In this document: positions 8,001-28,222 of the stretch, piece after piece
How the letters are laid out: each line of letters opens with the position of its first letter
Position numbering within the stretch: the first letter of the stretch is position 1
IMG/VR virus record: IMGVR_UViG_3300017779_000001
Origin: a virus
DNA: 64,000 nucleotides
Strand: one strand, 5' to 3'
Notes under the pieces: model-generated
Seen by the model: only the letters and a program-made list of their open reading frames with translations
Databases searched by the model: none
Told to the model about the DNA's origin: nothing
Program-made: the position numbers and the translations under genes

Positions 8001-11000
8001 TTTAGAACCCGATGGTCAATTTGAGTTATCAGATGCAGTTGACTTTAGACCAGTAGCAGACCAGTTAATTGGTCTCTCAGGTTTTCCAACACAAGACATA
8101 GACCCAACAGATTCAAATCTAGTAGACATTAGTGATAGTTCTACAGGTATTACTGCAGCTCCATTTAAATATGAGAGTACAGGATTTACTGCATCTGCAT
8201 TAGATGTACCAGTAACGAATAGTGCAATTCAAGGTGACATTACTTTCTATGTACCTAGAATCGATAAAGTATTCTTACATAAAGCTGGTAACTTCCAAGT
8301 AAATAGTGGTGTACCATCTTTATCACCAACTAAACCAAAGGTCATGGATGATGCAATTGAAATGTTTGAATTGTTCATTCCACCGTTTACTGCAAACCTA
8401 AAGAAAATTAAGATTAAGAGTATCGACCATAGAAGATATACCATGAAGGATATCGGTAGGATACAAAACAGAGTTGCAAACCTAGAAAGACTTACAACAC
8501 TATCTCTCTTAGAAAGAGATACACAAAACATGCAAATCCAAGATGCAGACGGATTCGATAGATTCAAATCAGGATTTGTTGTTGATTCATTTAAGGGTCA
8601 TGGTATCGGTGATGTTTCTCATCCTGATTATGGTGTTGCAATTGATACTAAACTAGGTACACTTAGACCACAAGTTTACACTTCATTCTTTGACTTAGGT
8701 CTAAATGAAGCTTCATCATCTAGTTATCAGAAGACTGGTGATTTACTAACACTACCATATTCAGAAAAGACATATGTAAATCAAGATAAAGCATCTAGAA
8801 CAATTAATGTCAACCCATATAACGTATTTGCATTTATCGGTAACCTTAAGTTATCTCCAAATTCAGATGTATGGAATGATTCAGAAAGATTACCCGAAGT
8901 TAGAATTAACAGAGAAGGTAACTATGATGCAGTATTAGCTGAGAATACAAACTCACTAGGTACTGTATGGAATGCATGGCAAACAACATGGGTCGGTGAA
9001 CCTAATGTTGTAAATGAAGAAGTTGTTTCATCAAGGCCTGGTTCATGGTCAGGAGACCCAGCACAAGGTGGTGAATGGATACCTGGCGAAGATGTTACAA
9101 GAGTTATTACAGAAACACCCGAGACACAAACAAGAAATGGTGTTAAGACTACAGTAGTCGAAGATTTTGTAGAAGACAGAAGAGACAGGATTGTAAGTGT
9201 AAGTATTATACCTTTCATCCGTTCTAGAAGAGTAGAACTAGATGCACAAAACTTACAACCGAATAGAAAACACTATGTGTTCTTTGATGGTATTAACGTC
9301 AATGCACATGTTACACCTTTCAGTTCAACATTCGGAGACGGTGGTGCAACTGCAAAAGGAACTGTAATTAAATCAAACAGAAATGGAAGACTTCGTGCAT
9401 ATTTTGATATACCAAATAACAATGCACAAAGATTCCCAACAGGTCAAAGAGAAGTCAAGATAACTGCAAGTGAAAGTAATCTTTCTAATCCACCTTCTTA
9501 TGCAAGTAATGTATATCAGGCACAAGGATTATTGCAGTCATCACAAACAGAAATTATATCTACAAAGAATGGTAGAGTTATTAGAGAAAATCTAACAGCA
9601 GGTAGAAGTATTGAAAGGTCAGGAGAGTTCTTTAACAGAACTGCAACCGATTTGGATGCACCTCCATTACCACCAGTACCACCAGCTGAAGACCCACCAT
9701 TACCACCTCCACCACCTCCGCCGCCTGACCCACCACCACCAATCGTGACACCACCAGTGGATGAGGCACCAATTATTCCAAATAATATATTTGATGTCCC
9801 CGATGTATGGGAGTTCAGAGGATGGCAAGACCCATTAGCAGAATCTTTCTTAGTAGAGAGTCGTGGTGGTATGTTTATAACATCTATAGATTTATACTTT
9901 AATACTAAAGATGAAAGTTTACCAGTAACAGTTGAAATTAGAAACATGGTAAATGGTTACCCTGGCCAGATAGTACTTCCGTATTCAGAAGTAACTAAAA
10001 ATCCTAATCTGATAAACATCTCAGAGGATGGTTCAGTTGCAACTACATTTACATTTGATTCACCAGTATATGTTGAAGAAGGACAAGAATATTGTTTCGT
10101 AGTATTATCAAACTCTAACAAGTATGAAACATTCATTTCAACTATGGGTGAAGAAGACATTAAAACTGGTCAATTGATATCAGGACAACCGTACGCAGGT
10201 TCATTATTCAAATCACAAAATGCATCAACATGGACTGCAGAACAAACACAAGACCTTAAGTTCCATATGAAAACTGCAAAGTTTGATACAACAAAAATTG
10301 CAAACATTATATTTGAGAATGGTGATTTAGAAAATGATACACTACAAGTTAACCCTATTCAAACAACATCAGGTTCAAGTAATGTTAAGGTTTATCATTA
10401 TACACATGGTATGTATGATGCAACATCAAATGTAACTTTATCAGGTATACAAGGTGATAGAGAAAACGGTGTAACAAATATAGGTGAAGGAAGTGCAACA
10501 TTATTATCAGGGGCATTACCTTCAAATAGTACTTACAATGATATTGCAACTACATCTAGTGGAAGTGGAACTGGGTGTAAACTCAAGTTCGTAGTAGCTG
10601 GTGGTGCAATATCAGATATAGAAATTCAAGATTGTGGTAGTAATTATAGTGTCTCAGATACTTTAACTGTAACAAACTTGGGTAGTACAACTAATAGTAT
10701 ACAGATTAATATTGATGCTGTAACAGATACTATCGGTGGAGTACCAATTAATCTATTAAATAAAACACATACTGCAATTGCAAATCCAAAACTAGACAGT
10801 TACGAAGTTGTTGTAGATTGGGATTCAACAGATATTGACGGTGCATCTGCACCATCTGTGTCATCATCTGTGGGTGGAGGAACATCAGTAATAGGTACAA
10901 GAAACTATTACTTTGATTCAATCCACACAATGATTCCATCATTGACATTGAGAGATACAAGATTAACATGTAACTTACAATTGTGTGCAATGAATTCACC

Positions 11001-11658
11001 CGAAAGTTATGTGAAAGGAACACCGTATGCAATGAGAAACTCTTCTCAATATGTTACACTTAATGACAATGTATTCTTAGACGCACCAAGTATTGTTGCA
11101 TCAAGAATTAATGAAGTAAATCAATCATCATTATCAGGTACAAGGTCATTTAAAACACAAGTATCATACATCACTTTGAATGAAAACGTATCACCAGTAA
11201 TTGATATGTCTTCAATGGGTGTTATCTGTAATGCAAACAGAGTAAATGGTATGAGTTCAACTAATGAGCAAACAATCACCCCAACAGAAAATGCAGAAGG
11301 TGAGATGAATGCAATGACATATGTAACTAAGAGAGTTAACTTAAAAGAACCAGCATCTTCAATTAAGGTTATGTTAGATGGATTTAGTCCATTAAGTACA
11401 GACCTAAAAGTTATGTACAAGGTTCTATTGAATGACGAATCTACTCCTTTTGATGATGTAGGATACAACTTCTTTAACACCGATGGTTCACCTGATATTA
11501 TCGTAGATAAAGATGGTAAGAATTTTAAAGAGTACGAATATAGTATAGAAGACTTACCCGAGTTTACATCTTTTGCAATTAAGATTGTAGGACAAGCACA
11601 TAATACTTCTGTAGTTCCATTAGTGTCTAACCTTAGAGCAATAGCGTTAGCAACGTAA
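5032..11658 (+). CDS. large baseplate-associated structural protein, VrlC/DUF4815-like
   Basis: N-terminal DLNVTPYHDDF...KVLFRAGRPLQARELTQ, DRFKSGFVVDSF, DPLAESFLV and GSLFKSQNASTW motifs; follows gp8 as in marine T4-like phages. Confidence 0.8.
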   Translation: MTEKTDLNVTPYHDDFSEDKKFHKVLFRAGRPLQARELTQSQSILQNQVERFAGHIFEEGSLVDGAQTDVVYDYGYVKVDNVNPNSVGGSVSTYLDSFKDKYIQGKTSGAVARVYLTVAETSDDPTTLVVKYLAGGTDSSNSFYFDANEELEEVNVDENGNPTSASNNNEFKVQTIDKSPVGRSSVASITEGVVYLRGFFVKVDAAQLILEKYSGQPSYRVGLDISEQLISSADDDSLLDNAQGTTNENAPGADRFKIQTTFVKKLLDTTDDTNFIELYRVVNGTTELKVSSANYSNFENSLARRTYDQSGDFTVRQFIPTLREHLQENDNLGYYTASQGGDVGKFVLQVSPGKAYVRGHEIDKIGTTPISLPKARTVAELSGTSTSARLGNYLKVTNIHSVPEFGNEGGEDSLKPNHLIKLYDSTVSLGTEPSSGQIGFARVRNFDELESVDVDNNKVLDPTSKHALYLFDIKMFTKIGITALSNASPINVGDRVDDTVTGAHGIVADVDYSNDFILVHDVQGTFVVGNTIQSTGSTNTTYNNAIASVRNYNIDRVRGVSQTPSNASREKFTGNVIVDGVKVLSGTVSLTAGSDTVVGFGTRFQDELKEGDVIVNPIDGGEHIVQTVGGATSVTLTANVGSGKTFQGNVTRRRVKLYDQNQTANIFAFSRDFIKSFTPDSCQVRRQTTVEVASQAFTISAGSGNTFPAITASNVNQFVEMAVIEQSSGSPTYLNGDVLDPRDFFTSLSGDSSTLSFGSLATANNGAILKVSYTVNIGSPVQRDKTLREGKMLKVGSPSSQNSFYGTGYDDKEISLGLADVFKIRGIYEAEDGSNPLPPSATIDQLNAGIPFVDKEIIKGQTTGARAKIINYAGDDNTTYFYYLSSTQFNSSESVVGETSTATGTLSNVSSGSKEIKNRYFFDDGQRDGFYDYAKLQLKPGEPAPNNSILIVFDYFTHGAGNFFDVSSYDNQVSYQEIPKYIPNKVDLGGLEPDGQFELSDAVDFRPVADQLIGLSGFPTQDIDPTDSNLVDISDSSTGITAAPFKYESTGFTASALDVPVTNSAIQGDITFYVPRIDKVFLHKAGNFQVNSGVPSLSPTKPKVMDDAIEMFELFIPPFTANLKKIKIKSIDHRRYTMKDIGRIQNRVANLERLTTLSLLERDTQNMQIQDADGFDRFKSGFVVDSFKGHGIGDVSHPDYGVAIDTKLGTLRPQVYTSFFDLGLNEASSSSYQKTGDLLTLPYSEKTYVNQDKASRTINVNPYNVFAFIGNLKLSPNSDVWNDSERLPEVRINREGNYDAVLAENTNSLGTVWNAWQTTWVGEPNVVNEEVVSSRPGSWSGDPAQGGEWIPGEDVTRVITETPETQTRNGVKTTVVEDFVEDRRDRIVSVSIIPFIRSRRVELDAQNLQPNRKHYVFFDGINVNAHVTPFSSTFGDGGATAKGTVIKSNRNGRLRAYFDIPNNNAQRFPTGQREVKITASESNLSNPPSYASNVYQAQGLLQSSQTEIISTKNGRVIRENLTAGRSIERSGEFFNRTATDLDAPPLPPVPPAEDPPLPPPPPPPPDPPPPIVTPPVDEAPIIPNNIFDVPDVWEFRGWQDPLAESFLVESRGGMFITSIDLYFNTKDESLPVTVEIRNMVNGYPGQIVLPYSEVTKNPNLINISEDGSVATTFTFDSPVYVEEGQEYCFVVLSNSNKYETFISTMGEEDIKTGQLISGQPYAGSLFKSQNASTWTAEQTQDLKFHMKTAKFDTTKIANIIFENGDLENDTLQVNPIQTTSGSSNVKVYHYTHGMYDATSNVTLSGIQGDRENGVTNIGEGSATLLSGALPSNSTYNDIATTSSGSGTGCKLKFVVAGGAISDIEIQDCGSNYSVSDTLTVTNLGSTTNSIQINIDAVTDTIGGVPINLLNKTHTAIANPKLDSYEVVVDWDSTDIDGASAPSVSSSVGGGTSVIGTRNYYFDSIHTMIPSLTLRDTRLTCNLQLCAMNSPESYVKGTPYAMRNSSQYVTLNDNVFLDAPSIVASRINEVNQSSLSGTRSFKTQVSYITLNENVSPVIDMSSMGVICNANRVNGMSSTNEQTITPTENAEGEMNAMTYVTKRVNLKEPASSIKVMLDGFSPLSTDLKVMYKVLLNDESTPFDDVGYNFFNTDGSPDIIVDKDGKNFKEYEYSIEDLPEFTSFAIKIVGQAHNTSVVPLVSNLRAIALAT

Positions 11659-11879
11659 TGAGTACAATGAAAGAACTAGCAAGAGTACAAGGAGAACAAC
11701 ATCTTTTTAGAGATGAAGAATCAGGTGCTATAATAAGTAATGATAGTCAAACACTTGCAATTTATAAGAAAAGAAAAACAGTGTTTCAAAATCAAATAAA
11801 TGAAATAAATACTCTTAGAGAAGAGATAAATGAAATTAAAGAATTTTTGAGGAATATAACAAATGGCCAAAACAGTTAG
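11658..11879 (+). CDS. small conserved hypothetical protein with C-terminal coiled coil
   Basis: LFRDEESGAIIS...EINTLREEINEIKEFL; start overlaps the upstream stop (TAATG). Confidence 0.65.
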   Translation: MSTMKELARVQGEQHLFRDEESGAIISNDSQTLAIYKKRKTVFQNQINEINTLREEINEIKEFLRNITNGQNS

Positions 11880-14616
11880 TCAACATAGTACACTCGAAGA
11901 GTGGAGACAGTCGTATAACGAACTAGCATCAGATGTTGGGGATATTGGTGGTTTACGTACTCAAGATAAAACTACACTTGTTGATGCAGTAAACGATTTA
12001 AGAGATAGAGAATTCTTTTTCCAAGGATTTATTTACACTGCAACTGGTGGTCAAACAGTATTCGAAGGTGCAGACAGTTCATCCGACCAAAATGAATTAG
12101 AGTTTAGAGACCATAGATTCCTCGTATTCAAAAACGGTGAATTACAACAACTCTCAACAGATTTCACAATATCAAATGTAAATGCAAACGGTAATCACAC
12201 TAGAGTTACACTTACATCGGGTGCAACTAATAATGATATTATCAGAGTGGTTGCATTTACAGGTTCATTCCTTGATGTCGCAGGTCAAGCTGCAGTACAA
12301 ACGTTTTGGACTGAAACATTAGAGAACACAATTTACAATAACAACGATAGTGGTGTTATTATTAATGGTGACATCGGTTCAGTTGTCACAGAATTACAAT
12401 CAGGTTACGTAGTTCAGATAGAAGGTAAAACATTCATCAATGGTGATGTAGACCTTGATACAGGTCATACCCTATCTGCACCTACACTTACAGACAACAC
12501 ACTATCAATTAATCAAGGAAACGTCACAGGGGGTGTCACAGGAGACTTCAGTGGTGATTTCAACGTAGGTAATTTAGATGTCGGTGGTGGTTTCAATTCA
12601 ACAGGAGTATCGATTACATCTACTGGTAACATCAATGCAAACGGTAGTGCAGAGATTGATGGAAACCTAAACGTAGATGGTTTAACAACATTAGATGGAA
12701 CAACAATTGATGGTAATCTAGACCTTAATGGTAATCTAGATGCATCAGGAACAGGACACATCGGTGGTAACTTTGATGTCAATACTGATAAGTTTACAGT
12801 TGCATCAGCAACAGGTAACACTGCAGTAGCAGGAAGATTAGATGTAACTGGTAATCTAGATGTTGATGGTGCAACAACTACAGATGGAATACACAACGTA
12901 GGTTCTTTAAATCAAGATGGAAGTGTGGACATTTCAACTACACTAGAGGTACATGGAGCTGTAGATTTTAACTCTACTCTAACTGTAGATGGTCAATCTA
13001 ATCTCAATGGTCATGTAAACTTGGGTAATGCATCTACTGATACAGTTACATTCAATGGTGTACTTGATAGTGACATCGTTCCCGATGGAGATAGTTCAAG
13101 AGACTTAGGTACAAACAGTGTTAGATTTTCAAATGCATATATCGATACTACAACAGGTAACCTAGTCGGTAATGCAAGTACAGCTACAACTTTAGAAACT
13201 GCAAGAGATATAGGTGGTGTATCCTTTGACGGAAGTGCAAGTATCAATTTGCCTGGCGTCAACCAATCAGGTAATCAGGACACATCAGGAAACGCTGCAA
13301 GTGCAACTGTATTAGAGACTGCAAGAAATATATCAGGTGTATCTTTTGATGGAAGTGCAGACATAGAATTAAATACTTCTCACATTGATGAAAACGTTGC
13401 AAACCTTTATTTTACAAATGCAAGAGCAGATGCAAGAATAACAAATGCTATTGATACAGACAATACTTTTGCAGATGCATCAAACACTTTAGTTCCTTCA
13501 CAGTTAGCAGTCAAATCATACGTTGATTCACAATTAGATTTACAAGACGAACTAAGTGAGATGAGTGGAGACTCAAGTGATATTACAGAACACGCAACAA
13601 CAAATTTATTCTTTACAAATGCAAGAGCAGATGCAAGGATAACAGCTGCAAGTGTTGGAGATTTAAGTGATGTGGACATTACAGGTGTTGCAGCTGGTCA
13701 AGCACTTACATGGAGTGCAAGTAATAATAGGTTCGAACCCACAACACTTGGTAGTTCTACCGACAGTTTTGCAGAAGGGTCATCAAACCTTTACTTCACA
13801 AATGAAAGAGCAAGAGATGCTGTTGCAAGTTTAATAGTAAATTCAAACAGTGTTAGCAATGGTCTTAATGCAACATATAACGATAATGATAATGCTGAAG
13901 GTACATTAGAACTCGATGTTGACCCCGAATATATCAGAGACACAACTGCATCATTCATCACTGGTGGAACACATAGTGGTATCTCATTTACTCACGATGA
14001 TAATAATGATAAATTAAATGCATCTATATCAATAAGTGGTTTTGACACAAATGATTTAAGCGAAGGTGAAACTAATCTTTACTTTACAAATGCAAGAGCA
14101 GATGCTAGAATCGCAGCTGCTAATACAAGTGACTTGTCAGAAGACCCCGATGCAACTGGTTCAAGTGGTACAATGTACTTCACAGACGAAAGAGCTCGTG
14201 ACGCTGCAGCAGCCATGATTACTAGTGGTACACACAGTAACATTACAGTCAATTATAATGACACTGCAAATACACTTTCGTTCTCTGCAGCTGCACAATA
14301 CGCAGACTCAGATGCAAGAGGAGCTTTATCAGGTGGGCCAGGTATTGATTACAATACATCAACTGGTAAAATTTCTGCAGACCTAAATGCAAGTGGTGGA
14401 TTAGAGTTCCATGCAGCTGGTGATGGTGGTGAGATAAGATTGAAATCTTCAGTGGCAGGTAATGGTCTTGCACATAGTAGTGGTGTTCTCTCTATAAATA
14501 CAAGGAAAGGTGTAAAAATAGATTCAGATTTTGTTGAATCAGATTATGAAGTAGTTTCAACAGCACCCTCAAGTGTCAGTGGTACAAACGATGGACATTT
14601 GTGGTATGTGGTGTAA
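11863..14616 (+). CDS. tail fibre-like structural protein
   Basis: N-terminal TLEEWRQSYNEL; Gly/Asn/Asp-rich beta repeats; two GNAxxATxLETARxIxGVSFDGSA units; five (N/T)xYFTxxRA-type repeats; C-terminal DGHLWYVV. Confidence 0.75.
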   Translation: MAKTVSQHSTLEEWRQSYNELASDVGDIGGLRTQDKTTLVDAVNDLRDREFFFQGFIYTATGGQTVFEGADSSSDQNELEFRDHRFLVFKNGELQQLSTDFTISNVNANGNHTRVTLTSGATNNDIIRVVAFTGSFLDVAGQAAVQTFWTETLENTIYNNNDSGVIINGDIGSVVTELQSGYVVQIEGKTFINGDVDLDTGHTLSAPTLTDNTLSINQGNVTGGVTGDFSGDFNVGNLDVGGGFNSTGVSITSTGNINANGSAEIDGNLNVDGLTTLDGTTIDGNLDLNGNLDASGTGHIGGNFDVNTDKFTVASATGNTAVAGRLDVTGNLDVDGATTTDGIHNVGSLNQDGSVDISTTLEVHGAVDFNSTLTVDGQSNLNGHVNLGNASTDTVTFNGVLDSDIVPDGDSSRDLGTNSVRFSNAYIDTTTGNLVGNASTATTLETARDIGGVSFDGSASINLPGVNQSGNQDTSGNAASATVLETARNISGVSFDGSADIELNTSHIDENVANLYFTNARADARITNAIDTDNTFADASNTLVPSQLAVKSYVDSQLDLQDELSEMSGDSSDITEHATTNLFFTNARADARITAASVGDLSDVDITGVAAGQALTWSASNNRFEPTTLGSSTDSFAEGSSNLYFTNERARDAVASLIVNSNSVSNGLNATYNDNDNAEGTLELDVDPEYIRDTTASFITGGTHSGISFTHDDNNDKLNASISISGFDTNDLSEGETNLYFTNARADARIAAANTSDLSEDPDATGSSGTMYFTDERARDAAAAMITSGTHSNITVNYNDTANTLSFSAAAQYADSDARGALSGGPGIDYNTSTGKISADLNASGGLEFHAAGDGGEIRLKSSVAGNGLAHSSGVLSINTRKGVKIDSDFVESDYEVVSTAPSSVSGTNDGHLWYVV

Positions 14617-14639
14617 TGGGACACAGAGGTGAACATTAA

Positions 14640-16880
14640 ATGTCAAATGAAACATATATTAATACAGGGACTAGTTTTCAACAACCCTTCAATGATAGAA
14701 GACCTGTACAACAAAGTTACCAATATAACAATCAAGAAAATAGACAGAGACCTGTACAACAAAATTATCAGTACAACAACGTAGAGAATAGACAGAGACC
14801 TGCTAGACAATCGTATCAATACAATAACGTAGAGAACAGACAAAGACCAGCTAGACAGTCATATCAATACAATAACGTAGAGAGCAGACAGAGACCAACA
14901 AGACAGTCTTATCAGTACCATAATAGAGTACAACAAAATACTCAACAAGATTACACTTATCATAATAGGACACAACAACCTAATCAGCAGAACTATACCT
15001 ATCATAATAGAGTAGATAGACAACGTCCTGTACAACAAAATTATCAGTATCATAATAGAGTAAATAGACAAAGACCTGCTCGACAACCTTACACTTATCA
15101 CAACCGTGTTCAACAAGATACTCAGCAAACTTATCAGTATCATAATAGGATTCCAACCACTACTCAACAAGAATACACTTATCACAATCGTGTTCAACAA
15201 AATACTCAACAAACGTATGTGTACCATAATAGAATACAAGAAAGCACTCAGCAAAATTATCAGTACAACAACGTAGAGTCAAAACAAAGACCTGTTAGGA
15301 ATCAAGCACACCAAAATTACATTCATTACATGCAAGTTTATGGGGGTTCAGGAGATACAGCTGCTATTAAGATGGAAACACCATATGGTCAGGTAACTAA
15401 TACGATACCATCTTTTGAGTTCATGGGGTTTCCAATGCAAGAACAACGTACCGTAAGTGGAAGTCAATATACGTTCCAAGCAAGACAAGCATCGGGTAAT
15501 GCACATGAAGGAGACTCATTTAGGGGTGCAATGTTCTTCAGAGGGCCACAGTATAGCTTACAAGGAACTCAGTCACCATACTATGAAGGTGCGGGGCCAC
15601 AGGGAAATCATACAAATTATACACAGTGGGAGATGCAAGGATTTTCTTTTGAGGGACAGTTCCAAAGACAATGGACAGGACGTTTAAGATACACAGGAAA
15701 GAATACTAAGTTTGCAGCTCACATGGAAGCTACTGATACTGTGCAAAACCAAACCGTCCCCAATCCTCAAAGACAAGGACATCCTCAGGGACAGGGGAAT
15801 CAAGGACTTGAATTTCTTTCTCAACATCCAAATAATTCTCAATATGGAATTACAATTACCAGTGGTCAGTATACAAGATTGGGGTGGGAACATGAGGGGT
15901 CATTTAATTCTCAGGTTCAATCACCAGTTAACCCCCGAAATATTCCTCAAACAGCGTTGAGAAATAAAGGAACCTTTGTAAGAGTGAGACCCCGTGGTTA
16001 TGCAAGACAAGAACAATTTACTACAGGTGTTGCTTTAGATTTTGCATCAGTAGCTGCACAAGGTCTTGATTATCAGGTACCTACTGCAAATCTTAATGAT
16101 AAACAACAACCTGCTCAACAAACTTATTCATACCATAATCAATTACCTAGAAGAAGACCCGTTAGAACTCAACGAAACGAAGATTCAGATAGACAAAGAC
16201 CAGTAAGAGTACAAACACTTTCATCTGAAACAAAACGTAGACCAACTACAGTACAACAATTACAACGTGTATCTAGACGAAGACCAGTTAGAAATCAAGT
16301 CAATCAGGCTAATGAACAACAAAGAAATATACAACAAACATATCAGTATAATAATATTGTAACTAAACAACGTCCTGTACAACAAACTTATCCATATAAT
16401 AATGTTGAGACTAGACAAAGACCTGTTAGAAATCAAGTTAATGAAGATGTGACTAGACAAAGACCTGCTAGGGTTGCAGTATTACAAAGAGTTTCTAGAC
16501 AAAAGAATTTGCAACAAACATATTCTTATCACAATCAGGTTCCTAGAAGAAAATCTGTACAACAGACTTATAGTTATCATAACAGAGTAACAAGACAAAA
16601 GAATTTACAACAGACTTATAGTTATCATAATCAGGTTCCAAGACGTAGACCAGTACAACAGACTTATAATTATCATAATCAGGTTCCAAGACGTAGACCA
16701 GTGAGACAACCATTCCCTTCAACAAGACCTATAGGGCCTCTTGCAAAGGTTAAACAAATTTGGATTAATGAAGGTGGAGTGTTAAGAAAAATGGATGAAG
16801 TGTACTTAAATGATAGTGGAACATTGAAAAAGACTCATCAAAGTGTACCAACTTCTCAATTAACAGACCCGAACACTTAA
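14640..16880 (+). CDS. mirror-repeat (RxRP / YxY[HN]N) protein A, putative hairpin fibre with central tip domain
   Basis: 746-aa ORF; two arms of 14/16-aa repeats flank a non-repetitive domain homologous to that of 24074-28222; lies in the fibre gene block. Confidence 0.7.
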   Translation: MSNETYINTGTSFQQPFNDRRPVQQSYQYNNQENRQRPVQQNYQYNNVENRQRPARQSYQYNNVENRQRPARQSYQYNNVESRQRPTRQSYQYHNRVQQNTQQDYTYHNRTQQPNQQNYTYHNRVDRQRPVQQNYQYHNRVNRQRPARQPYTYHNRVQQDTQQTYQYHNRIPTTTQQEYTYHNRVQQNTQQTYVYHNRIQESTQQNYQYNNVESKQRPVRNQAHQNYIHYMQVYGGSGDTAAIKMETPYGQVTNTIPSFEFMGFPMQEQRTVSGSQYTFQARQASGNAHEGDSFRGAMFFRGPQYSLQGTQSPYYEGAGPQGNHTNYTQWEMQGFSFEGQFQRQWTGRLRYTGKNTKFAAHMEATDTVQNQTVPNPQRQGHPQGQGNQGLEFLSQHPNNSQYGITITSGQYTRLGWEHEGSFNSQVQSPVNPRNIPQTALRNKGTFVRVRPRGYARQEQFTTGVALDFASVAAQGLDYQVPTANLNDKQQPAQQTYSYHNQLPRRRPVRTQRNEDSDRQRPVRVQTLSSETKRRPTTVQQLQRVSRRRPVRNQVNQANEQQRNIQQTYQYNNIVTKQRPVQQTYPYNNVETRQRPVRNQVNEDVTRQRPARVAVLQRVSRQKNLQQTYSYHNQVPRRKSVQQTYSYHNRVTRQKNLQQTYSYHNQVPRRRPVQQTYNYHNQVPRRRPVRQPFPSTRPIGPLAKVKQIWINEGGVLRKMDEVYLNDSGTLKKTHQSVPTSQLTDPNT
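14718..15305 (+). repeat. N-arm coding repeats of protein A (42/48-nt units)
   Basis: unit lengths in aa, anchored on YxY[HN]N: 16,16,16,16,14,14,16,16,14,14,14,14,(16). Confidence 0.9.
16101..16688 (+). repeat. C-arm coding repeats of protein A
   Basis: unit lengths in aa, anchored on RxRP-like motif: 16,14,14,14,14,16,16,14,14,16,16,16,16. Confidence 0.9.
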
Positions 16881-16885
16881 AGTTG

Positions 16886-16893
16886 TATAAATA
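16886..16893 (+). promoter_or_regulatory. T4-type late promoter TATAAATA
   Basis: exact consensus 5 nt before the ATG at 16899. Confidence 0.8.
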
Positions 16894-16898
16894 GTTAT

Positions 16899-17231
16899 AT
16901 GGCAATCATAGCAAACATATTTATAGACCAAGGTACCGATTTCGAAGTTACTATCGATGTCTCTGATACCAGTGACAATATCATAGACTTATCAGGGTAC
17001 ACTGCCTCTGCACAAATAAGAAAAACATATGGTTCTGAAACCATTGCAGAAACTTTTGGTACATCCATAACTGCATCAACTGGTAAGGTAACACTTACTC
17101 TTACGGATACTCAAACCACTGGTTTGAAAAGTGGTAGATATGTTTATGATTTAGTAATAACAGATGCCTCAGGAACAAAGACTAGAGTCATTGAGGGACA
17201 AGCAATAATAACACCCGGCGTAACAAGGTAG
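16899..17231 (+). CDS. conserved virion structural protein (Ig-like adaptor type)
   Basis: ANIFIDQGTDF...DLSGYTASAQIRK...GRYVYDLVI...TRVIEG...TPGVT pattern common in T4-like phage fibre regions. Confidence 0.7.
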   Translation: MAIIANIFIDQGTDFEVTIDVSDTSDNIIDLSGYTASAQIRKTYGSETIAETFGTSITASTGKVTLTLTDTQTTGLKSGRYVYDLVITDASGTKTRVIEGQAIITPGVTR

Positions 17232-21756: not shown

Positions 21757-24059
21757 TGGCAGGTGAAAAGAATTTTAACGTCAAGAATGGTCTATCGGTT
21801 GCTGGAACAGAAGTCATTCAAACAGATGGAACTTATGTAGGTTCCATTTCTGCAACTGCACTTAACGAAAGTGTAGACGATAGAGTTGCAAACCTCTTAC
21901 AAGCAGGAGCTGGTATTGGATTATCATACGATGATGCAAATAACCAATTAACAATCACAGGTAATGTTGGTGATATCACTGGTGTTAACGCAGGTGCTGG
22001 TTTAACAGGTACTGCAACTTCAGGTGATGCAACATTAAACATTGGTGCTGGTACAGGTATTACTGTAAATGCAGATGACATTGCAATCAACTTTAAAGAC
22101 GAAGACAACATGTCTTCAAACAGTGCAATACACGCTGCAACACAACAATCAATTAAAGCATATGTAGATTCCCAAGTATCAAGTAAAGACAACACAGACG
22201 AAATTACAGAAGGAAGTTCAAACCTCTACTATACAAATGAAAGAGTAGATGACAGAGTAAGTTCATTACTTACCGAAGGAAGTGGTATATCATTAACATA
22301 TGATGATACAGCTAACACACTTACAGTTGCAAATACAAACTCTGCAGATATTACAGCAGTAACAGCAGGAAATGGTTTGACTGGTGGTGGAACTTCAGGT
22401 GCAGTGTCACTTGCAGTTCAAGTTGATGACAGTTCATTAGAACTTGCATCAGATACAGTTCAAGTAAAAGCAGGTGGTATCACTAATGATATGTTAGCAG
22501 GTTCTATTGTAAATGGAAAACTTGCAAACAATTCAATATCAGTTAACTCAACTTCCGTATCCCTTGGTGGTTCTGTTACTTTAGACACTGGTGATATTTC
22601 AGAAAATGGAAATCTATACCATACATCAGAAAGAGTTGACGATAGAGTCAATGCATTAATTACTGCTGGTACCAATATAACAACATCATATGATGATGCA
22701 GCTGGTACACTTACAATTAACTCTTCAGGTAAAACACAAGAACAAATAGAAGACATCGTAAATGGTTTAGTAGTTGGTGGAACAAACATCACTTCTACAT
22801 ACGATGATACAAATGGTACACTTACACTTGCTGGTTTATCAAATGGAGATATCAGAGGTTTATTATCTGCAACTGGAGATTTATCATACAACAGTACTAC
22901 AGGTGCATTCTCATTCACAGAAAGAACAAATGCAGAAGTAAGAGGTTTATTCTCAGCAGGTGGTGACTTAGCATACAACAGCACAACAGGTGCATTTAGT
23001 GTAACAAAATTCACAACTGCAAATGCAAGAAGTTCAATTTCAGCAGGTGGTGATTTAGCATACAATTCAAGTACTGGTGTTATCTCATACAGTGAACCTA
23101 CAATGTATGCAGACTCAGATGCAAGAGGAGCTATATCAGTAACAGACTCAGGTGGAGACGGTTCACTTGCATATAATTCTTCTACTGGTGTTATCACATA
23201 CACAGGCCCAAGTGCATCAGAAGTTCGAGCTCATCTAAGTGCTGGAACTGGTGTTGGATTCTCAGGTGGTGCATTTAGTATCGGTCAGGCAGTCGCAACA
23301 AACAGTAATGTAACATTTGCAGATGTAAATGCAAGTGGTGATTTAGTAGTCACAGGTGACTTAACAGTTAATGGGTCAACAGTTACCAACAGTGCATCAA
23401 ATACAACAATCGAAGATGCATTGATTGAACTTGGTTCAGGTAACACAGGTTCAAACTCTAATGACTTAGGTCTTATCCTCGAAAGAGGTTCAACTGGTGA
23501 TAATGTATTCATGGGTTGGGACGAAAGTTCAGATAGAGTTAGATTTGCAACTACAACAGCAACAGGTTCATCCAGTGGTGCATTAACACTTACTAATGCA
23601 AACATACAAGCAGGAAGACTTTACGGTGCTGTTACAGGTAACGTAACTGGTAATGCAGACACAGCTTCTGCATGGGCAGATGCAAGAACTATCTCTTTAG
23701 GTGGTGACCTTACAGGTTCCGTATCTATAGATGGTAGTGCAAACGCAACACTTAATGCAACAGTTGGTTCAAATGCAGTTGCATTAGGTTCAAACACAAC
23801 AGGAAATTACGTATCAGGAATATCAGGAACCTCAAATGAGATTACAATCTCAGGTTCAGGTAGTGAAAATGCAACAGTAACAATAGGTCTACCCGATGAT
23901 GTAACTATCGGTGATGCATTATCAGTTACTGGTAAAGGTACTACAGATTTTACAACAATCGGTAGTTCAGACGGAGCATTTAGAAATACTTTCATACATT
24001 CAGCAGGCCCATCAGGAAGTGATGGACAAGTCGGTGATGTATGGATAACTTACTCATAA
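21756..24059 (+). CDS. tail fibre-like protein
   Basis: KNFNVKNGLSV start; repeated VDDRVxxL..GxxI...YDD and GDLAYNSTTG units; C-terminal GSDGQVGDVWITYS. Confidence 0.75.
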   Translation: MAGEKNFNVKNGLSVAGTEVIQTDGTYVGSISATALNESVDDRVANLLQAGAGIGLSYDDANNQLTITGNVGDITGVNAGAGLTGTATSGDATLNIGAGTGITVNADDIAINFKDEDNMSSNSAIHAATQQSIKAYVDSQVSSKDNTDEITEGSSNLYYTNERVDDRVSSLLTEGSGISLTYDDTANTLTVANTNSADITAVTAGNGLTGGGTSGAVSLAVQVDDSSLELASDTVQVKAGGITNDMLAGSIVNGKLANNSISVNSTSVSLGGSVTLDTGDISENGNLYHTSERVDDRVNALITAGTNITTSYDDAAGTLTINSSGKTQEQIEDIVNGLVVGGTNITSTYDDTNGTLTLAGLSNGDIRGLLSATGDLSYNSTTGAFSFTERTNAEVRGLFSAGGDLAYNSTTGAFSVTKFTTANARSSISAGGDLAYNSSTGVISYSEPTMYADSDARGAISVTDSGGDGSLAYNSSTGVITYTGPSASEVRAHLSAGTGVGFSGGAFSIGQAVATNSNVTFADVNASGDLVVTGDLTVNGSTVTNSASNTTIEDALIELGSGNTGSNSNDLGLILERGSTGDNVFMGWDESSDRVRFATTTATGSSSGALTLTNANIQAGRLYGAVTGNVTGNADTASAWADARTISLGGDLTGSVSIDGSANATLNATVGSNAVALGSNTTGNYVSGISGTSNEITISGSGSENATVTIGLPDDVTIGDALSVTGKGTTDFTTIGSSDGAFRNTFIHSAGPSGSDGQVGDVWITYS

Positions 24060-24073
24060 GAGTTTAATATAAT

Positions 24074-27000
24074 ATGGCGCAACGAATAAAGAACCCTACG
24101 GGGTGGGTAAACACAACAGGAAGCTGGGTAAAAACATCTCCAACTGAATGGTCGGCAGTAGATTCTATCTATTCAAAGACACCTACTGGGTGGGTAAAGT
24201 CATCAGGACAAATGCCAGCTCAAGTAGTTGCAACAAGACCAGCAGTTGGGACAAGACCTTACAACTTCCAACAATCTTATCAATTCACTGTGCAACAGTC
24301 GTATCAGTATCATAATAGGGTACAGGCATCTACACAACAGTCATATCAGTATCATAACAGGGTTCAAACAAGTGTTCAACAAGATTACACTTATCACAAC
24401 CGTGTTCAACAAAATACTCAACAGACATATACCTATCATAATAGAGTACAAAGAAGAAGACCAGTACAACAAGCATATACCTATCATAATAGAGTACCTA
24501 GACGTAGACCAGTACAACAGACTTATAGTTATCACAATCAGGTACCAAGACGTAGACCAGTACAACAGACGTACGTCTATCATAATCAGGTACCAAGACG
24601 TAGACCTACACAACAATCATATCAATACCATAATAGAGTTGGTAGACAACGTGTAGTACAACAGGGTTATACTTATCACAATAGAGGACAAGCTTCTACC
24701 CAACAGACTTACCAGTATCATAACAGAGTTCAAACAAGTACTCAACAACCTTACACTTATCATAATAGGGTACCTAGAAGAAGACCTGTACAACAGTCGT
24801 ATCAGTACCATAATAGAGTACAAAGAAGAAGACCTGTTCAACAGACGTATACCTATCATCATAGAATACCAAGACGTAGACCAGTACAACAGGCATACAC
24901 TTATCACAATAGGATACAAACAAGTACTCAACAGGCATACACTTATCACAATAGGGTACCTAGAAGAAGACCAGTCCAACAGGCATACCAGTACCACAAT
25001 AGGGTGCAGAGAAGAAGACCTGTTCAACAGTCGTATCAGTACCATAATAGAGTACCTAGAAGAAGACCAGTACAACAAGGGTATACTTATCATAATAGAG
25101 GACAAGCATCAACTCAACAGACTTATCAATATCATAACAGAGTTCAAGCTTCTACTCAACAGAGTTACCAGTATCATAATAGGGTTCAGACTAGTGTACA
25201 ACAATCATACCAATACCATAATAGAGTACAGGTAAGTACACAACAGAATTACCAGTACAACAATACTGAATCAAGAAGAAGACCTGTACAACAAAGTTAC
25301 CAGTACAACAATCAAGAGTCTAGAAGAAGACCAGTACAACAGGTATACCAGTATCATAATCAGGTACCTAGAAGAAGACCTGTACAACAGACGTATACCT
25401 ATCATAATCAGGTACCAAGACGTAGACCTGTACAACAAAGTTACCAGTACAATAATCAAGAGACAAGACGTAGACCAGCACAACAGTCTTATACGTATCA
25501 TAATAGACTTCAAGCTAGGTATAGTTACCAACAACCTTATAGTTATCACAATCAGGTACCAAGACGTAGACCTGTGCAACAAGCATACACTTATCATAAT
25601 CAGGTTCCAAGACGTAGACCAGTTCAACAGTCTTATCAGTACAATAATCAAGAGTCAAGACGTAGACCAGTTCAACAGTCTTATCAGTACAATAATCAAG
25701 AGCCAAGACGTAGACCAACACAACAGTCTTATCAGTTTAACCAACCTACACCTAGAAGAAGACCTGTACAACAAACATACCAGTTTAACCAACCTACATC
25801 TAGGACAAGACAGACTACAGTAAGGAATAGCGCACACACAGCTTACATCCATTATGGAAATATCTATGGTGGTGGTGGTGATACATCTGTTATTAAGGTA
25901 GAAACTCCATACGGACAAAGAACTTCCTATATACCATCTTTTGAGTTCTCGGGTTTCCCAATGAATGCTCAGAATACAGGTACTGCAAGTCCATTTGGTT
26001 TTGCAGGAAGACCTGATGGAAAAGGACATGAAAGAGATTCCTTTAGAGGAAACATGATGTTCAGAGGGCCTTCGTTACAAATGTCAGGTACGCAATCACC
26101 ATTCTTTACTGGTAGTGGCCCACAAAACCAATCAACATCACCGAAGAGTTGGCACTATAGAAGTTACTTTGGTGGACAAAGACAGTGGCAGGGTGTGTTA
26201 AGATTTGTTGGTGCGAACATGGAATTTGGTGCTGATTTCGTTGCAGGGCCAGCTGCTCAATCTGTTCAAAGTATACCTAACCCACAGAGACAAGGTTCAA
26301 TACCTATTACAGGACAAGCACCAACTAATTCTCAATATGGTGCAAAAATAACGAGTGGACAGACTGCAACATTTAAATGGTCACAAGATGGTCAGATGCA
26401 GTCACAATCACCCGGCGGTGGAGGTGGAGGATTCCCACTATTTGTCAGAAACAAAGGTGATGTATTCGTTAGAAGTAGAGATTTGTCTCATGTTCACCAA
26501 GTAACTTTCAGTAATAGTGCTGGTGTGACATGGCCTCAAGGTCAGATGAACGAGATGCAACAGCCTGGTCAACAGAACCAACCGTACACTTATCATAATA
26601 GGGTACAAAGACGTAGACCAACACAACAACCGTACACTTATCATAATAGGGTACCTAGAAGAAGACCAGTACAACAGGCATACACTTATCATAATCAGGT
26701 ACCTAGAAGAAGACCTGTGCAACAAGCGTACACTTATCATAATCAGGTACCAAGACGTAGACCTGTACAACAAAGTTACCAGTACAACAATCAAGAGTCT
26801 AGAAGAAGACCAGTACAACAAAGTTACCAGTACAATAATACTGAGACTAGGAGAAGACCTGCTAGGTCAGACTATCGAGTCAACCAACCTACTCCTAGAA
26901 GAAGACCAGTACAACAGACGTATACCTATCATAATAGAATACCGAGACGTAGACCAGTGCAACAATCTTATCAGTACAATAATACTGAGACTAGAAGAAG

Positions 27001-28222
27001 ACCAGTGCAATCGTCTTATCAGTACAATAATACTGAATCTAGAAGAAGACCAGTTCAACAGACGTATACTTATCATAATAGAATACCAAGACGTAGACCT
27101 GTACAACAAAGTTATCAGTATCATAATCAGGTACCTAGAAGAAGACCAACTAGAGTACAAACATTACAGAGGGTGTCAAGACAGAGACCAGCAAGAGTAC
27201 AAGCTTTACAACGTGTATCAAGACGTAGACCAACAAGAGTACAACAGTTGCAACGTGTCTCTAGACAAAGACCAGCAAGAGTACAGGTTAACATTCAAGA
27301 AACAAGAAGAAGACCTGTACAACAAAGTTACCAGTACAATAATATTGTAACTAGACAACGTCCTGTACAACAAGGTTATCAATATAATAATATTGAGTCT
27401 AGAAGAAGACCAGTGCAACAGGGTTATCAATATAATAATACTGAGACTAGAAGAAGACCAACTAGAGTACAGGTGAACCAACCTTCTCCTAGAAGAAGAC
27501 CTGTTCAACAGAGTTATCAGTATAATAGTACTGAGAACAGACAGAGACCAGTACAACAAGGTTATCAGTATAATAATATTGAGACTAGACAACGTCCTGT
27601 ACAACAAGGTTACCAGTATAATAATGTTGAGACTAGAAGAAGACCAGCAAGAGTACAACAGTTGCAACGTGTTTCTAGACAAAGACCTGCTAGAGTTCAG
27701 GTAAATATACAAGAAACTAGAAGAAGACCAGCACAGCAAACTTATCAGTACAATAATATTGTAACTAGACAACGTCCAACACAACAGAATTATCAATATA
27801 ATAATACTGAAAATAGACAGAGACCAGTGCAACAAGGTTACCAGTATAATAATACTGAAAACAGACAAAGACCAGTGCAACAGGGTTATCAATATAATAA
27901 TATTGAGTCTAGAAGAAGACCAGTGCAACAGGGTTATCAATATAATAATATTGAGTCTAGACAAAGACCAGCAAGAGTTCAGGTTCTACAGAATGTAACT
28001 AGACAAAGACCTGCTAGAACACAGGTATTGCAGAGAGTTTCAAGACAGAGACCTACTAGGGTACAGGTATTGCAAAGAGTTTCAAGACAGAGACCAGCAC
28101 AGTCATCCCGTCAGAAGGTTACAGTTGGTATACAACCATATGCATATCAACAACCGTATAGAAATACAGTTCAGAAATGGGATGGTACAACGTCTTGGCC
28201 TGCACAACCAATATCCTCTTAA
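24074..28222 (+). CDS. mirror-repeat (RRRP / YxY[HN]N) protein B, putative long hairpin fibre with central tip domain
   Basis: 1382-aa ORF; two 492-aa repeat arms flank a roughly 260-aa unique domain; Trp-rich N-terminal cap. Confidence 0.7.
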   Translation: MAQRIKNPTGWVNTTGSWVKTSPTEWSAVDSIYSKTPTGWVKSSGQMPAQVVATRPAVGTRPYNFQQSYQFTVQQSYQYHNRVQASTQQSYQYHNRVQTSVQQDYTYHNRVQQNTQQTYTYHNRVQRRRPVQQAYTYHNRVPRRRPVQQTYSYHNQVPRRRPVQQTYVYHNQVPRRRPTQQSYQYHNRVGRQRVVQQGYTYHNRGQASTQQTYQYHNRVQTSTQQPYTYHNRVPRRRPVQQSYQYHNRVQRRRPVQQTYTYHHRIPRRRPVQQAYTYHNRIQTSTQQAYTYHNRVPRRRPVQQAYQYHNRVQRRRPVQQSYQYHNRVPRRRPVQQGYTYHNRGQASTQQTYQYHNRVQASTQQSYQYHNRVQTSVQQSYQYHNRVQVSTQQNYQYNNTESRRRPVQQSYQYNNQESRRRPVQQVYQYHNQVPRRRPVQQTYTYHNQVPRRRPVQQSYQYNNQETRRRPAQQSYTYHNRLQARYSYQQPYSYHNQVPRRRPVQQAYTYHNQVPRRRPVQQSYQYNNQESRRRPVQQSYQYNNQEPRRRPTQQSYQFNQPTPRRRPVQQTYQFNQPTSRTRQTTVRNSAHTAYIHYGNIYGGGGDTSVIKVETPYGQRTSYIPSFEFSGFPMNAQNTGTASPFGFAGRPDGKGHERDSFRGNMMFRGPSLQMSGTQSPFFTGSGPQNQSTSPKSWHYRSYFGGQRQWQGVLRFVGANMEFGADFVAGPAAQSVQSIPNPQRQGSIPITGQAPTNSQYGAKITSGQTATFKWSQDGQMQSQSPGGGGGGFPLFVRNKGDVFVRSRDLSHVHQVTFSNSAGVTWPQGQMNEMQQPGQQNQPYTYHNRVQRRRPTQQPYTYHNRVPRRRPVQQAYTYHNQVPRRRPVQQAYTYHNQVPRRRPVQQSYQYNNQESRRRPVQQSYQYNNTETRRRPARSDYRVNQPTPRRRPVQQTYTYHNRIPRRRPVQQSYQYNNTETRRRPVQSSYQYNNTESRRRPVQQTYTYHNRIPRRRPVQQSYQYHNQVPRRRPTRVQTLQRVSRQRPARVQALQRVSRRRPTRVQQLQRVSRQRPARVQVNIQETRRRPVQQSYQYNNIVTRQRPVQQGYQYNNIESRRRPVQQGYQYNNTETRRRPTRVQVNQPSPRRRPVQQSYQYNSTENRQRPVQQGYQYNNIETRQRPVQQGYQYNNVETRRRPARVQQLQRVSRQRPARVQVNIQETRRRPAQQTYQYNNIVTRQRPTQQNYQYNNTENRQRPVQQGYQYNNTENRQRPVQQGYQYNNIESRRRPVQQGYQYNNIESRQRPARVQVLQNVTRQRPARTQVLQRVSRQRPTRVQVLQRVSRQRPAQSSRQKVTVGIQPYAYQQPYRNTVQKWDGTTSWPAQPISS
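24302..25777 (+). repeat. N-arm coding repeats of protein B (32 units)
   Basis: 10 units of 14 aa and 22 units of 16 aa, anchored on YxY[HN]N. Confidence 0.9.
26609..28084 (+). repeat. C-arm coding repeats of protein B (32 units)
   Basis: 10 units of 14 aa and 22 units of 16 aa, anchored on RxRP; identical total length (1476 nt) to the N arm. Confidence 0.9.

What the first reader, a model, noticed from the sequence alone, without database searches (positions are those of the whole stretch)
14640..16880. Protein A independently obeys the same mirror code with a different unit order (13 pairs)
SEEN: N arm 16,16,16,16,14,14,16,16,14,14,14,14,(16) versus C arm 16,14,14,14,14,16,16,14,14,16,16,16,16, again an exact reverse. 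The four outer Asn-type N units (YQYNNVEN) face four His-type C units (YSYHNQVP); the two His-type 16-mers (YHNRVD, YHNRVN) face Asn-type units (YNNVET, YNNIVT); all six Tyr-type 14-mers face Arg-type 14-mers; QQPF/RQPF bracket the two ends. The order differs from protein B, so the symmetry was not simply inherited from one ancestral layout. INFERENCE: a shorter (about 65 nm) version of the same hairpin fibre, giving the phage two lengths of one appendage type.
Basis: partly seen in the sequence, partly recalled or inferred. Interest (0 to 1): 0.85.

Follow-up and report, generated by a model that had tools for sequence, protein, structure and literature searches.

The report
Mirror-coded fold-back phage fibre, short paralogue
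A 746-residue protein in the tail-fibre gene block of an uncultured marine T4-like phage has two 196-residue repeat arms that match unit for unit when one is read backwards. The chain therefore most likely folds back on itself into a long paired stalk carrying a variable tip, a way of building a phage fibre that I found in no paper or solved structure.

Summary
Protein A (window 14640-16880, +) has an N arm (residues 24-219) and a C arm (493-688), each of 13 units of 16 or 14 residues. The C-arm order is the exact reverse of the N-arm order.

Only H16:N16 and H14:N14 face each other. This held for 105 of 105 pairs in five proteins.

One gapless antiparallel register puts 39 of the 40 arm tyrosines opposite Arg or Lys. 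Relatives carry other layouts and keep the rule by changing both arms together. Four relatives break it, each by whole-unit gaps. Three of them have a close relative with the matching arm or arms.

The termini are 91-100% conserved and the centre about 57%. One distant orthologue has a centre with no significant similarity.

Best reading, at about 0.6: the chain folds back, the tip lies mid-sequence and both termini sit at the base. This is inferred.

An antiparallel pairing between two chains, or a compact stack, is not excluded. The 65 nm length and a place on the virion are untested.

The scan has reported the same design before, for paralogue B and for proteins in other phage genomes. I found no paper on it.

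The parts
14640..16880 (+). Gene for protein A (746 aa plus stop)
   Evidence: ORF list and translation. Separate per-run assemblies cover 14400-16651 with no differences.
14640..14708 (+). N-terminal cap, residues 1-23 (contains QQPF; 8-23 resembles a degenerate 16-mer)
   Evidence: 100% identical in all six full-length A-type proteins compared, the window's included. The parser reads residues 8-23 as an extra weak unit.
14709..15296 (+). N arm, residues 24-219: 13 units, from the outer end N16 x4, H14 x2, H16 x2, H14 x4, N16
   Evidence: All 26 Tyr sit at even unit positions. All Pro and His sit at odd positions.
15297..16115 (+). Central domain, residues 220-492: the putative distal tip
   Evidence: 43% identical to the centre of B. 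Mean pairwise identity among A-type proteins is 57%, the least conserved part. No Pfam, PDB, cultured-phage or Atlas relative.
16116..16703 (+). C arm, residues 493-688: 13 units, from the centre H16, N14 x4, N16 x2, N14 x2, H16 x4
   Evidence: In the register where N-arm residue n faces C-arm residue 713-n, 39 of the 40 arm Tyr face Arg or Lys.
16704..16877 (+). C-terminal module, residues 689-746 (RQPF, then a tandem motif of about 11 aa): the putative docking end
   Evidence: Mean pairwise identity 91%. The only library hit is PHROG 13729, of unknown function, E 4e-07. It is kept in the distant orthologue P0013.
24074..28222 (+). Paralogue B (1382 aa): 33 units against 33 under the same code
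11863..14616 (+). Upstream 917-aa fibre-like gene, ending GHLWYVV, 23 nt before gene A
   Evidence: Matches to PHROG tail-fibre families. The same neighbour stands in L001 and L007.
16899..17231 (+). Downstream 110-aa gene of an LtfC-like or tail-fibre-assembly family
   Evidence: PHROG 1084 at E 3.7e-29, PHROG 3304 at E 4.2e-23, and Pfam PF23926 just under its cut-off. A gene of similar size follows the A-like gene in L007.

Best explanation
Protein A is a self-complementary fold-back fibre protein of the tail or baseplate module. The chain runs out along the N arm, forms a variable central domain, and runs back along the C arm, paired antiparallel with the N arm.

The pairing follows a four-letter unit code. 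A His-class unit always faces an Asn-class unit of the same length, so only H16:N16 and H14:N14 occur. At residue level the arms are long extended strands. The conserved even positions (Q2, Y4, Y6, N8, V/E10, R12, R14) lie on one face, and each Tyr sits opposite an Arg or Lys. The irregular order of 14- and 16-residue units acts as a barcode that allows one register only, and that disfavours mispairing with paralogue B.

Both conserved termini end up together at the base, where they would dock. The variable central domain sits at the far tip as the likely receptor-binding part.

Shown: the code, its conservation through compensated changes in both arms, the conservation gradient and the gene context. 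Inferred: the physical pairing, that it lies within one chain, the extended conformation and the length of about 65 nm, the oligomeric state, and the role in adsorption.
For: - Exact mirror of 13 units, and 105 of 105 facing pairs obey H:N with equal length in A, L001_A, L005, B and L003_B.
- The unit-level match is unique. Antiparallel offset 0 gives 13/13, offsets of one unit give 8/12, and no parallel control exceeds 8.
- The residue register n + c = 713 puts 39 of 40 Tyr opposite Arg or Lys. The next best offset gives 26. Shuffled unit orders average 25 with sd 3.7.
- H14 looks like H16 without two residues and its Arg cluster at the C-terminal end. N14 looks like N16 without the leading QQ, with Tyr changed to Val. 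In an antiparallel pair these two changes lie opposite each other.
- Compensated changes occur in orthologues. The window has 6444466446666. L001_A and L005 have 6444446446666 in both arms, so an H16:N16 pair became H14:N14 at the same rung. The N arm of P0007 and the C arm of P0008 give a third layout at 13/13, including an N14 in the N arm facing an H14 in the C arm. That layout is a composite from two contigs. The distant orthologue P0013 has 14x5, a 30-aa block, 14, 16x4, 14 in both arms, with the classes swapped between the arms.
- Conservation falls towards the middle of the chain: N-terminus 100%, C-terminus 91%, arms 61-74%, centre 57%. The centre of P0013 has no significant similarity, while its termini and arms are kept.
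- All Tyr lie at even positions, and all Pro and His at odd positions, through the whole arm. Both unit lengths are even.
- The gene sits in a baseplate and tail-fibre block, and the neighbourhood is the same in L001 and L007.
- A precedent exists: the T4 gp37 tip is a six-stranded antiparallel needle (PMC9659904, PMC6957217).
Against: - There is no structural support. AlphaFold2 gave pLDDT 27.6 for the whole protein and 35.4 for the centre.
- Both arms are strongly basic, with net charges of +16 and +32. Pairing cannot be driven by charge, and the arms may need a polyanion or high salt.
- Four relatives (P0004, P0005, P0006, P0007) are not exact mirrors. P0004, P0006 and P0007 each differ by one clean whole-unit gap from a close relative that has the matching arm or arms. 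P0005 has a short C arm on a 3.6-kb contig and no close full-length relative.
- The sequence alone cannot separate pairing within one chain from pairing between chains.
- The family is small: 6 representatives among 1.84 billion.
- Nothing shows that the protein is in the virion.
Confidence: 0.6

Rival explanations
1. The arms pair antiparallel, but between chains. The N arm of one chain zips to the C arm of another. This gives a double-length rod with the central domains in the middle, or an open-ended chain or lattice.
For: It satisfies every sequence rule equally well: the mirror order, H:N complementarity and the n + c register. Self-pairing of N with N or C with C is excluded at 0/13, but pairing of N with the C arm of another chain is not.
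Against: The most variable part would lie mid-rod and both ends would be identical, which is unusual for an adhesin. In P0013 the centre is replaced by one with no significant similarity. That is easy for a domain inserted at a hairpin tip, but harder if the centre must also dimerise with a fixed geometry. The gp37 precedent is a fold-back within each chain. All three points are arguments, not tests.
Confidence: 0.15
2. The chain folds back but the result is compact. Each N-arm unit and its facing C-arm unit form one layer of a stacked cross-beta or solenoid body with about 0.48 nm per layer. That body would be roughly 6 nm long for A, not a long fibre.
For: The Q/N/Y-rich units resemble sequences that form stacked beta structures (own knowledge). 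A layer of 28 or 32 residues is a plausible solenoid coil size. The mirror order would also put one H-class and one N-class unit in each layer.
Against: The two-residue alternation runs unbroken through all 13 units, and no position is reserved for turns. Stacking would put Arg clusters on top of Arg clusters. Strict equality of length within a layer is not obviously needed, whereas an extended ribbon needs it to keep register.
Confidence: 0.12
3. The arms do not touch each other. Both lie along a common partner with two-fold or antiparallel symmetry, such as another fibre or a polyanion like DNA or a surface polysaccharide, and that partner imposes the mirror order.
For: The arms are very basic, at +16 and +32. 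A fibre-like gene directly precedes A in every locus examined.
Against: A symmetric partner predicts identical unit types at mirrored places. What is seen is complementary types, never H:H or N:N, in 105 of 105 pairs, with Tyr opposite Arg. The paired loss of Arg on one arm and Tyr on the other fits direct contact better.
Confidence: 0.06
4. The mirror is chance, an assembly artefact or a by-product of DNA repeats, and has no structural meaning.
For: Metagenome assemblies can mis-count tandem repeats, and some relatives differ by whole units.
Against: The chance probability is 1/36036 for A and 1/9.3e7 for the lengths in B. The same sequence was recovered in separate per-run assemblies. There are no inverted DNA repeats. 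The rule holds in several different layouts.
Confidence: 0.01

Closest known systems
Needle domain of the phage T4 long tail fibre tip, gp37 (structure by Bartual et al. 2010, as described in PMC9659904 and PMC6957217, plus own knowledge)
   Same: It is a fibre of a T4-type phage. The chain runs to a distal receptor-binding head and comes back, so the stalk is made of antiparallel strands and the tip lies mid-sequence.
   Different: - The gp37 needle is a short terminal part of a 1026-aa protein and is about 15 nm long (PMC3004832). It is held by seven iron ions bound by histidines (PMC6957217).
- Here almost the whole protein is the hairpin, at 196 residues per arm (508 in B).
- It is built from modular 14- and 16-residue units with a class-pairing code and Tyr:Arg facings.
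- It has no HxH motif and no detectable sequence similarity to any solved structure.
- A trimeric state is unknown here.
SMC, Rad50 and MukB arms (own knowledge)
   Same: The N- and C-terminal halves of one chain fold back and pair antiparallel over hundreds of residues. The termini come together at one end and a distinct domain sits at the fold.
   Different: Those arms are alpha-helical coiled coils in ATPases that act on chromosomes. Here the arms contain Pro at regular intervals and show a strict two-residue alternation typical of beta strands. The protein sits in a phage tail-fibre block.
Repeat shafts of parallel trimeric fibres: adenovirus fibre triple beta-spiral, T4 gp12 and gp34 repeats (own knowledge; PMC3004832, PMC5537660)
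   Same: A viral fibre shaft built from short sequence repeats of about 15 residues. The distal binding domain varies and the attachment end is conserved.
   Different: Those chains run parallel from base to tip, and the binding domain lies at the C-terminus. Nothing requires a mirror order of repeats there, and none is known.
Mirror-complementary fibre proteins reported earlier in this scan, for paralogue B and for other marine T4-like phage genomes
   Same: Two repeat arms that match in reverse order under a pairing rule, a place in the tail-fibre gene block, and uncultured marine T4-like phages.
   Different: These are unchecked AI reports. The repeat units and arm lengths differ, from 4-residue repeats up to about 870 residues per arm. 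I re-tested only paralogue B of this genome.

Membership tests
T4 gp37-type receptor-binding tip (collar, needle, head) | Sequence similarity to the gp37 or gp12 tip, or to any solved fibre structure | tested here: not met
   No Pfam family at E <= 0.01. No PDB chain at E <= 1 with the whole protein or with a profile of the centre.
T4 gp37-type receptor-binding tip (collar, needle, head) | His-X-His motifs along the needle that bind iron | tested here: not met
   No HxH anywhere in protein A. Each unit pair has a single His.
T4 gp37-type receptor-binding tip (collar, needle, head) | The chain folds back, so that out-going and returning strands pair antiparallel | tested here: inconclusive
   The sequence complementarity and compensated changes fit this.
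T4 gp37-type receptor-binding tip (collar, needle, head) | Homotrimer forming a six-stranded needle | not testable with these tools
   No multimer prediction was available.
Phage tail fibre or receptor-binding protein (functional class) | Encoded in the baseplate and tail-fibre gene block, with the neighbourhood conserved | tested here: met
   A gp8-type wedge gene, fibre-like genes and an LtfC-like gene surround it. The order is the same in L001 and L007.
Phage tail fibre or receptor-binding protein (functional class) | Conserved attachment end and variable or exchangeable binding domain | tested here: met
   Termini 91-100%, centre 57%. The centre of P0013 has no significant similarity.
Phage tail fibre or receptor-binding protein (functional class) | Present in the virion and needed for adsorption | not testable with these tools
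   The phage is uncultured and no proteome exists. The cDNA-labelled run X19 holds pieces of the gene but is probably DNA.
SMC-like antiparallel coiled-coil arms | Heptad-based alpha-helical arms flanked by ATPase head halves | tested here: not met
   No SMC or ATPase Pfam match. The units carry Pro at fixed positions and alternate with a period of two residues.

The most novel reading that the evidence does not exclude
These proteins are a fibre architecture not yet described. A single chain, or a bundle of such chains, forms a beta ribbon tens to hundreds of nanometres long. Its register is written in a four-letter peptide pairing code (H16:N16, H14:N14, Tyr opposite Arg), comparable to base pairing in an RNA stem-loop. 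Length would evolve by matched insertions in both arms, tips could be swapped at the loop, and paralogues in one phage would stay apart through different barcodes. If so, the design would be a natural, programmable beta-sheet building system, and would explain how marine phages tune fibre length.
Probability: 0.4. Interest if true: 0.9.

Novelty: new variant of a known kind. Interest (0 to 1): 0.78.

Why it matters
If the fold-back reading is right, protein A and paralogue B show a modular way to build phage fibres of set length from a single chain. Pairing specificity would be encoded at the level of repeat units.

- For phage biology, this would show how uncultured marine T4-like phages vary fibre length and swap receptor-binding tips.
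- For protein design, it would give a natural rule set for long, register-defined beta hairpins.
- Protein A is the most tractable member for experiments. At 746 residues it can be made as a synthetic gene, and the residue-level pairing map (N-arm residue n faces C-arm residue 713-n) makes precise, falsifiable predictions.

Tried and rejected
- AlphaFold2 on the whole protein with 8 sequences gave pLDDT 27.6. On the central domain with 12 sequences it gave 35.4. Both are uninformative, so I ran no fold searches; matches to such models are meaningless.
- Family and structure libraries gave nothing: Pfam, PDB by sequence and by profile, 50,697 phage genomes by tblastn, and the ESM Atlas, whose best score of 0.83 is no usable lead. 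PHROGs matched only the C-terminal module, to a family of unknown function.
- Searches for more relatives yielded few:
  - the full-sensitivity search of 1.84 billion representatives found 6;
  - three word-indexed searches found 8 proteins in all, besides a 516-aa copy of the window's own protein and the P0013 query re-finding itself;
  - three IMG/VR scans and one metagenome scan found 6 contigs, two of which appear to be the same record.
- The rest of the B-like gene on the P0013 contig could not be fetched, because that record is not held.
- A DNA palindrome as the cause was rejected: the gene has no inverted repeats.
- An A:B hetero-hairpin was rejected: the best match is 8/13.
- A's C-terminal module and B's N-terminal region show no detectable similarity.
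- HTVC008M, among the nearest cultured relatives, has no such protein at the matching place.
- The fine-scale link between position 9 of facing 16-mers (Gln with Thr/Gln, Arg with Ile/Val) was seen by eye in B. I did not use it, because matched duplications could produce it without contact.
- Literature searches found no description of such a fibre. Bartual et al. 2010 is not held.
Full report
**Context**

All sizeable ORFs of the window lie on the + strand. The region around the finding is a T4-type baseplate and tail-fibre block:
- a gp8-type wedge gene at 3535-4989 (PHROG 438, E 4.7e-135; Pfam Phage-Gp8);
- a 2208-aa structural gene;
- a 917-aa fibre-like gene at 11863-14616;
- protein A at 14640-16880;
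- a 110-aa gene of an LtfC-like or tail-fibre-assembly family at 16899-17231;
- further fibre-like genes, and protein B at 24074-28222.

The major capsid protein is 63-64% identical to those of Pelagibacter phages Mosig and HTVC008M and of the Methylophilales phage Melnitz. The gp8 homologue is 41% identical to that of HTVC008M. The source is therefore an uncultured marine T4-like myovirus. HTVC008M has no comparable protein at the matching place.

**The observation**

Protein A has 746 residues and is rich in Q, R, N, T and Y, with no Cys.
- N arm, residues 24-219: 16,16,16,16,14,14,16,16,14,14,14,14,16.
- C arm, residues 493-688: 16,14,14,14,14,16,16,14,14,16,16,16,16.

Both arms are 196 residues long. 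Protein B re-parses as 33 units against 33, also an exact reverse.

**A simpler grammar**

The units fall into two classes, each in two lengths.
- His class: H16 is QQxYxYHN[RQ]VxRxRPx. H14 is QQxYxYHNRVQQNT. H14 looks like H16 without two residues and without its Arg cluster at the C-terminal end.
- Asn class: N16 is QQxYQYNNxExRxRPx. N14 is RVQVNxxExRRRPx. N14 looks like N16 without the leading QQ, with Tyr changed to Val.

Only H16:N16 and H14:N14 face each other. This held for 105 of 105 pairs in A, L001_A, L005, B and L003_B.

In an antiparallel pair, the C-terminal end of the His unit lies opposite the N-terminal end of the Asn unit. The two-residue deletions therefore lie opposite each other, and so do the loss of Arg on one strand and the loss of Tyr on the other.

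**Statistics and controls**

- The chance of A's exact length mirror is 1/1716. With the four unit types it is 1/36036. For the lengths in B it is about 1/9.3e7.
- Sliding the arms by whole units gives 13/13 only at antiparallel offset 0. Offsets of one unit give 8/12. No parallel control exceeds 8.
- At residue level, one gapless antiparallel register has N-arm residue n facing C-arm residue 713-n, so unit positions sum to 18. It puts 39 of the 40 arm tyrosines opposite Arg or Lys. The exception is Y153:Q560.
- The next best offset gives 26. Shuffled C-arm unit orders average 25 with sd 3.7, and reach 39 in 4 of 5000 trials. B peaks at the same relative offset, with 110 pairs against 89.
- There are no inverted DNA repeats in the gene. 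The units are only 63-85% alike as DNA.
- Separate per-run assemblies from three seawater or virome runs cover 14400-16651 with no differences. Two of those runs may be the source of the window. A 75-nt piece bridges the remaining repeat junction.

**Relatives**

The family is rare. The full-sensitivity search of 1.84 billion representatives found 6. The word-indexed, IMG/VR and metagenome searches added a handful more.

Relatives that are exact mirrors, written from the centre outwards with 6 for a 16-mer and 4 for a 14-mer:
- Window A: 6444466446666.
- L001_A (identical in a second contig, L002) and L005: 6444446446666 in both arms. Compared with the window, an H16:N16 pair has become H14:N14 at the same rung, so both arms changed.
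- The N arm of P0007 against the C arm of its 95%-identical relative P0008: 6444646466466, at 13/13. It includes an N14 in the N arm facing an H14 in the C arm. This layout is a composite of two contigs.
- P0013, a distant orthologue in the same gene neighbourhood: 14x5, a 30-residue irregular block, 14, 16x4, 14 in both arms, with the classes swapped between the arms.

Relatives that are not exact:
- P0004 lacks two outer 16-mers in its N arm.
- P0006 lacks one 14-mer in its N arm.
- P0007 lacks a 14-mer and a 16-mer in its C arm.
- P0005 has a short C arm and comes from a 3.6-kb contig.

P0006 is 100% identical to the exact-mirror L005 apart from one clean 14-residue gap. P0004 differs from L001_A, and P0007 from P0008, by one clean gap of 32 and 30 residues at about 95% identity. 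These may be collapsed repeats or tolerated whole-unit bulges. None shifts the two arms by a part of a unit.

**Conservation**

Among six full-length A-type proteins, the window's included, mean pairwise identity is 100% for the N-terminal 23 residues and 91% for the C-terminal 58. It is 74% for the N arm, 61% for the C arm and 57% for the centre.

The centre of P0013 has no significant similarity to that of A, while its termini and arm units are kept. The centres of A and B are homologous: 43% identity, E 7e-69.

**How it most likely works**

What is shown:
- a strict, conserved complementarity between the arms that exists only in the antiparallel sense and in one register;
- compensated changes in both arms across relatives;
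- conserved ends with a variable, possibly exchangeable middle;
- a place in the tail-fibre gene block.

What I infer is that the chain folds back, the arms zip together, the centre forms the distal tip and the two termini form the docking end.

Conserved residues sit at the even unit positions. Positions 3, 5, 9 and 11 are the most variable. All 40 Tyr are at even positions, and all Pro and His at odd positions, along the whole arm. Both unit lengths are even, so the alternation is never broken. This fits long extended strands.

In a two-stranded antiparallel ribbon, a register in which positions sum to an even number lets every Pro sit where its missing NH would point away from the partner strand. 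It also puts Y4:R14, Y6:R12 and N8:E10 on one face. This step is reasoning from general beta-sheet geometry, not a result.

The irregular order of 14- and 16-mers would then act as a barcode that fixes the register. A and B match each other at best 8/13, so they should not mispair.

**Open points**

- Both arms are basic, at +16 and +32. Pairing would rest on Tyr-Arg and hydrogen-bond contacts, in seawater salt or with a polyanion.
The fold-back, the oligomeric state and the length of about 65 nm remain untested.
- Pairing between two chains satisfies the same sequence rules. I rank it lower because it would put the variable domain in the middle of the rod, and because a centre with no significant similarity takes its place in P0013.
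- A compact stacked body is a third possibility.
- A shared symmetric partner fits poorly, because mirrored units are complementary rather than identical.

**Comparison with what is known**

The nearest known design is the needle of the T4 gp37 tip. It is a six-stranded antiparallel structure in which the chains return from a distal head (PMC9659904), stabilised by seven iron ions bound by histidines (PMC6957217), and about 15 nm long (PMC3004832).

Protein A shares the proposed topology but not the defining features I could test. It has no sequence similarity to gp37 and no HxH motif. SMC-type arms share the fold-back logic but use coiled coils.

I found no paper describing a fibre with mirror-coded repeat arms.

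This scan has already reported the same design for paralogue B of this genome and for proteins of other marine T4-like phages. Those are unchecked notes, and of them I re-tested only B.

**Verdict**

Protein A adds an independent, shorter and experimentally tractable case, with a residue-level pairing map.

Noticed in passing
L007:2214-4637 and its neighbours (ENA contig of 74,965 bases): P0013 is a distant orthologue of A in the same gene order: fibre, A-like, 111 aa, 70 aa, 544, 277, 136, 233, 111, 765, then a B-like gene of 1247 aa. Its central domain has no significant similarity to A's, and its arm classes are swapped between the arms. The B-like gene runs off the fetched locus and could not be read whole.
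   Followed up: partly
window 14709-15296 and 16116-16703 compared with 24074-28222: The seven innermost unit pairs of A (N16:H16, H14:N14 x4, H16:N16 x2) have the same classes as pairs 12-18 of B. A may have arisen from a B-like gene by loss of the inner pairs, or B from A by gain.
   Followed up: partly
window 16704-16877: The conserved C-terminal module holds a tandem motif of about 11 residues (IWINEGGVLRK / VYLNDSGTLKK) and matches only PHROG 13729, of unknown function. B's N-terminal 72 residues, which hold several G-W-V-type motifs, show no detectable similarity to it.
   Followed up: partly
window 14560-14616 and 24000-24059: The fibre-like genes just upstream of A and of B end in ...GHLWYVV and ...GDVWITYS. 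Both endings are conserved in L001, L003 and L007. They could be the partners of the hairpin termini.
   Followed up: partly
window 14505-14916, 15551-15781, 16728-16953: A run labelled metatranscriptomic cDNA (X19) holds three pieces of gene A without differences. The run is flagged as probably DNA, so this is no evidence of expression.
   Followed up: no
window 5032-11658: A 2208-aa protein matches PHROG 358 over residues 1-1429 (E 0). It corresponds in position to the 'VrlC protein' of HTVC008M. It is a very large conserved structural protein of unknown role, just upstream of the fibre block.
   Followed up: no
L010:2-1519 (-): A second B-like gene, cut by the contig end, stands on the IMG/VR contig that also carries L002. 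Its N arm has an N14 unit (RVQVNQPSPRRRPV) among 16-mers. Its C arm is missing, so the mirror could not be checked.
   Followed up: no
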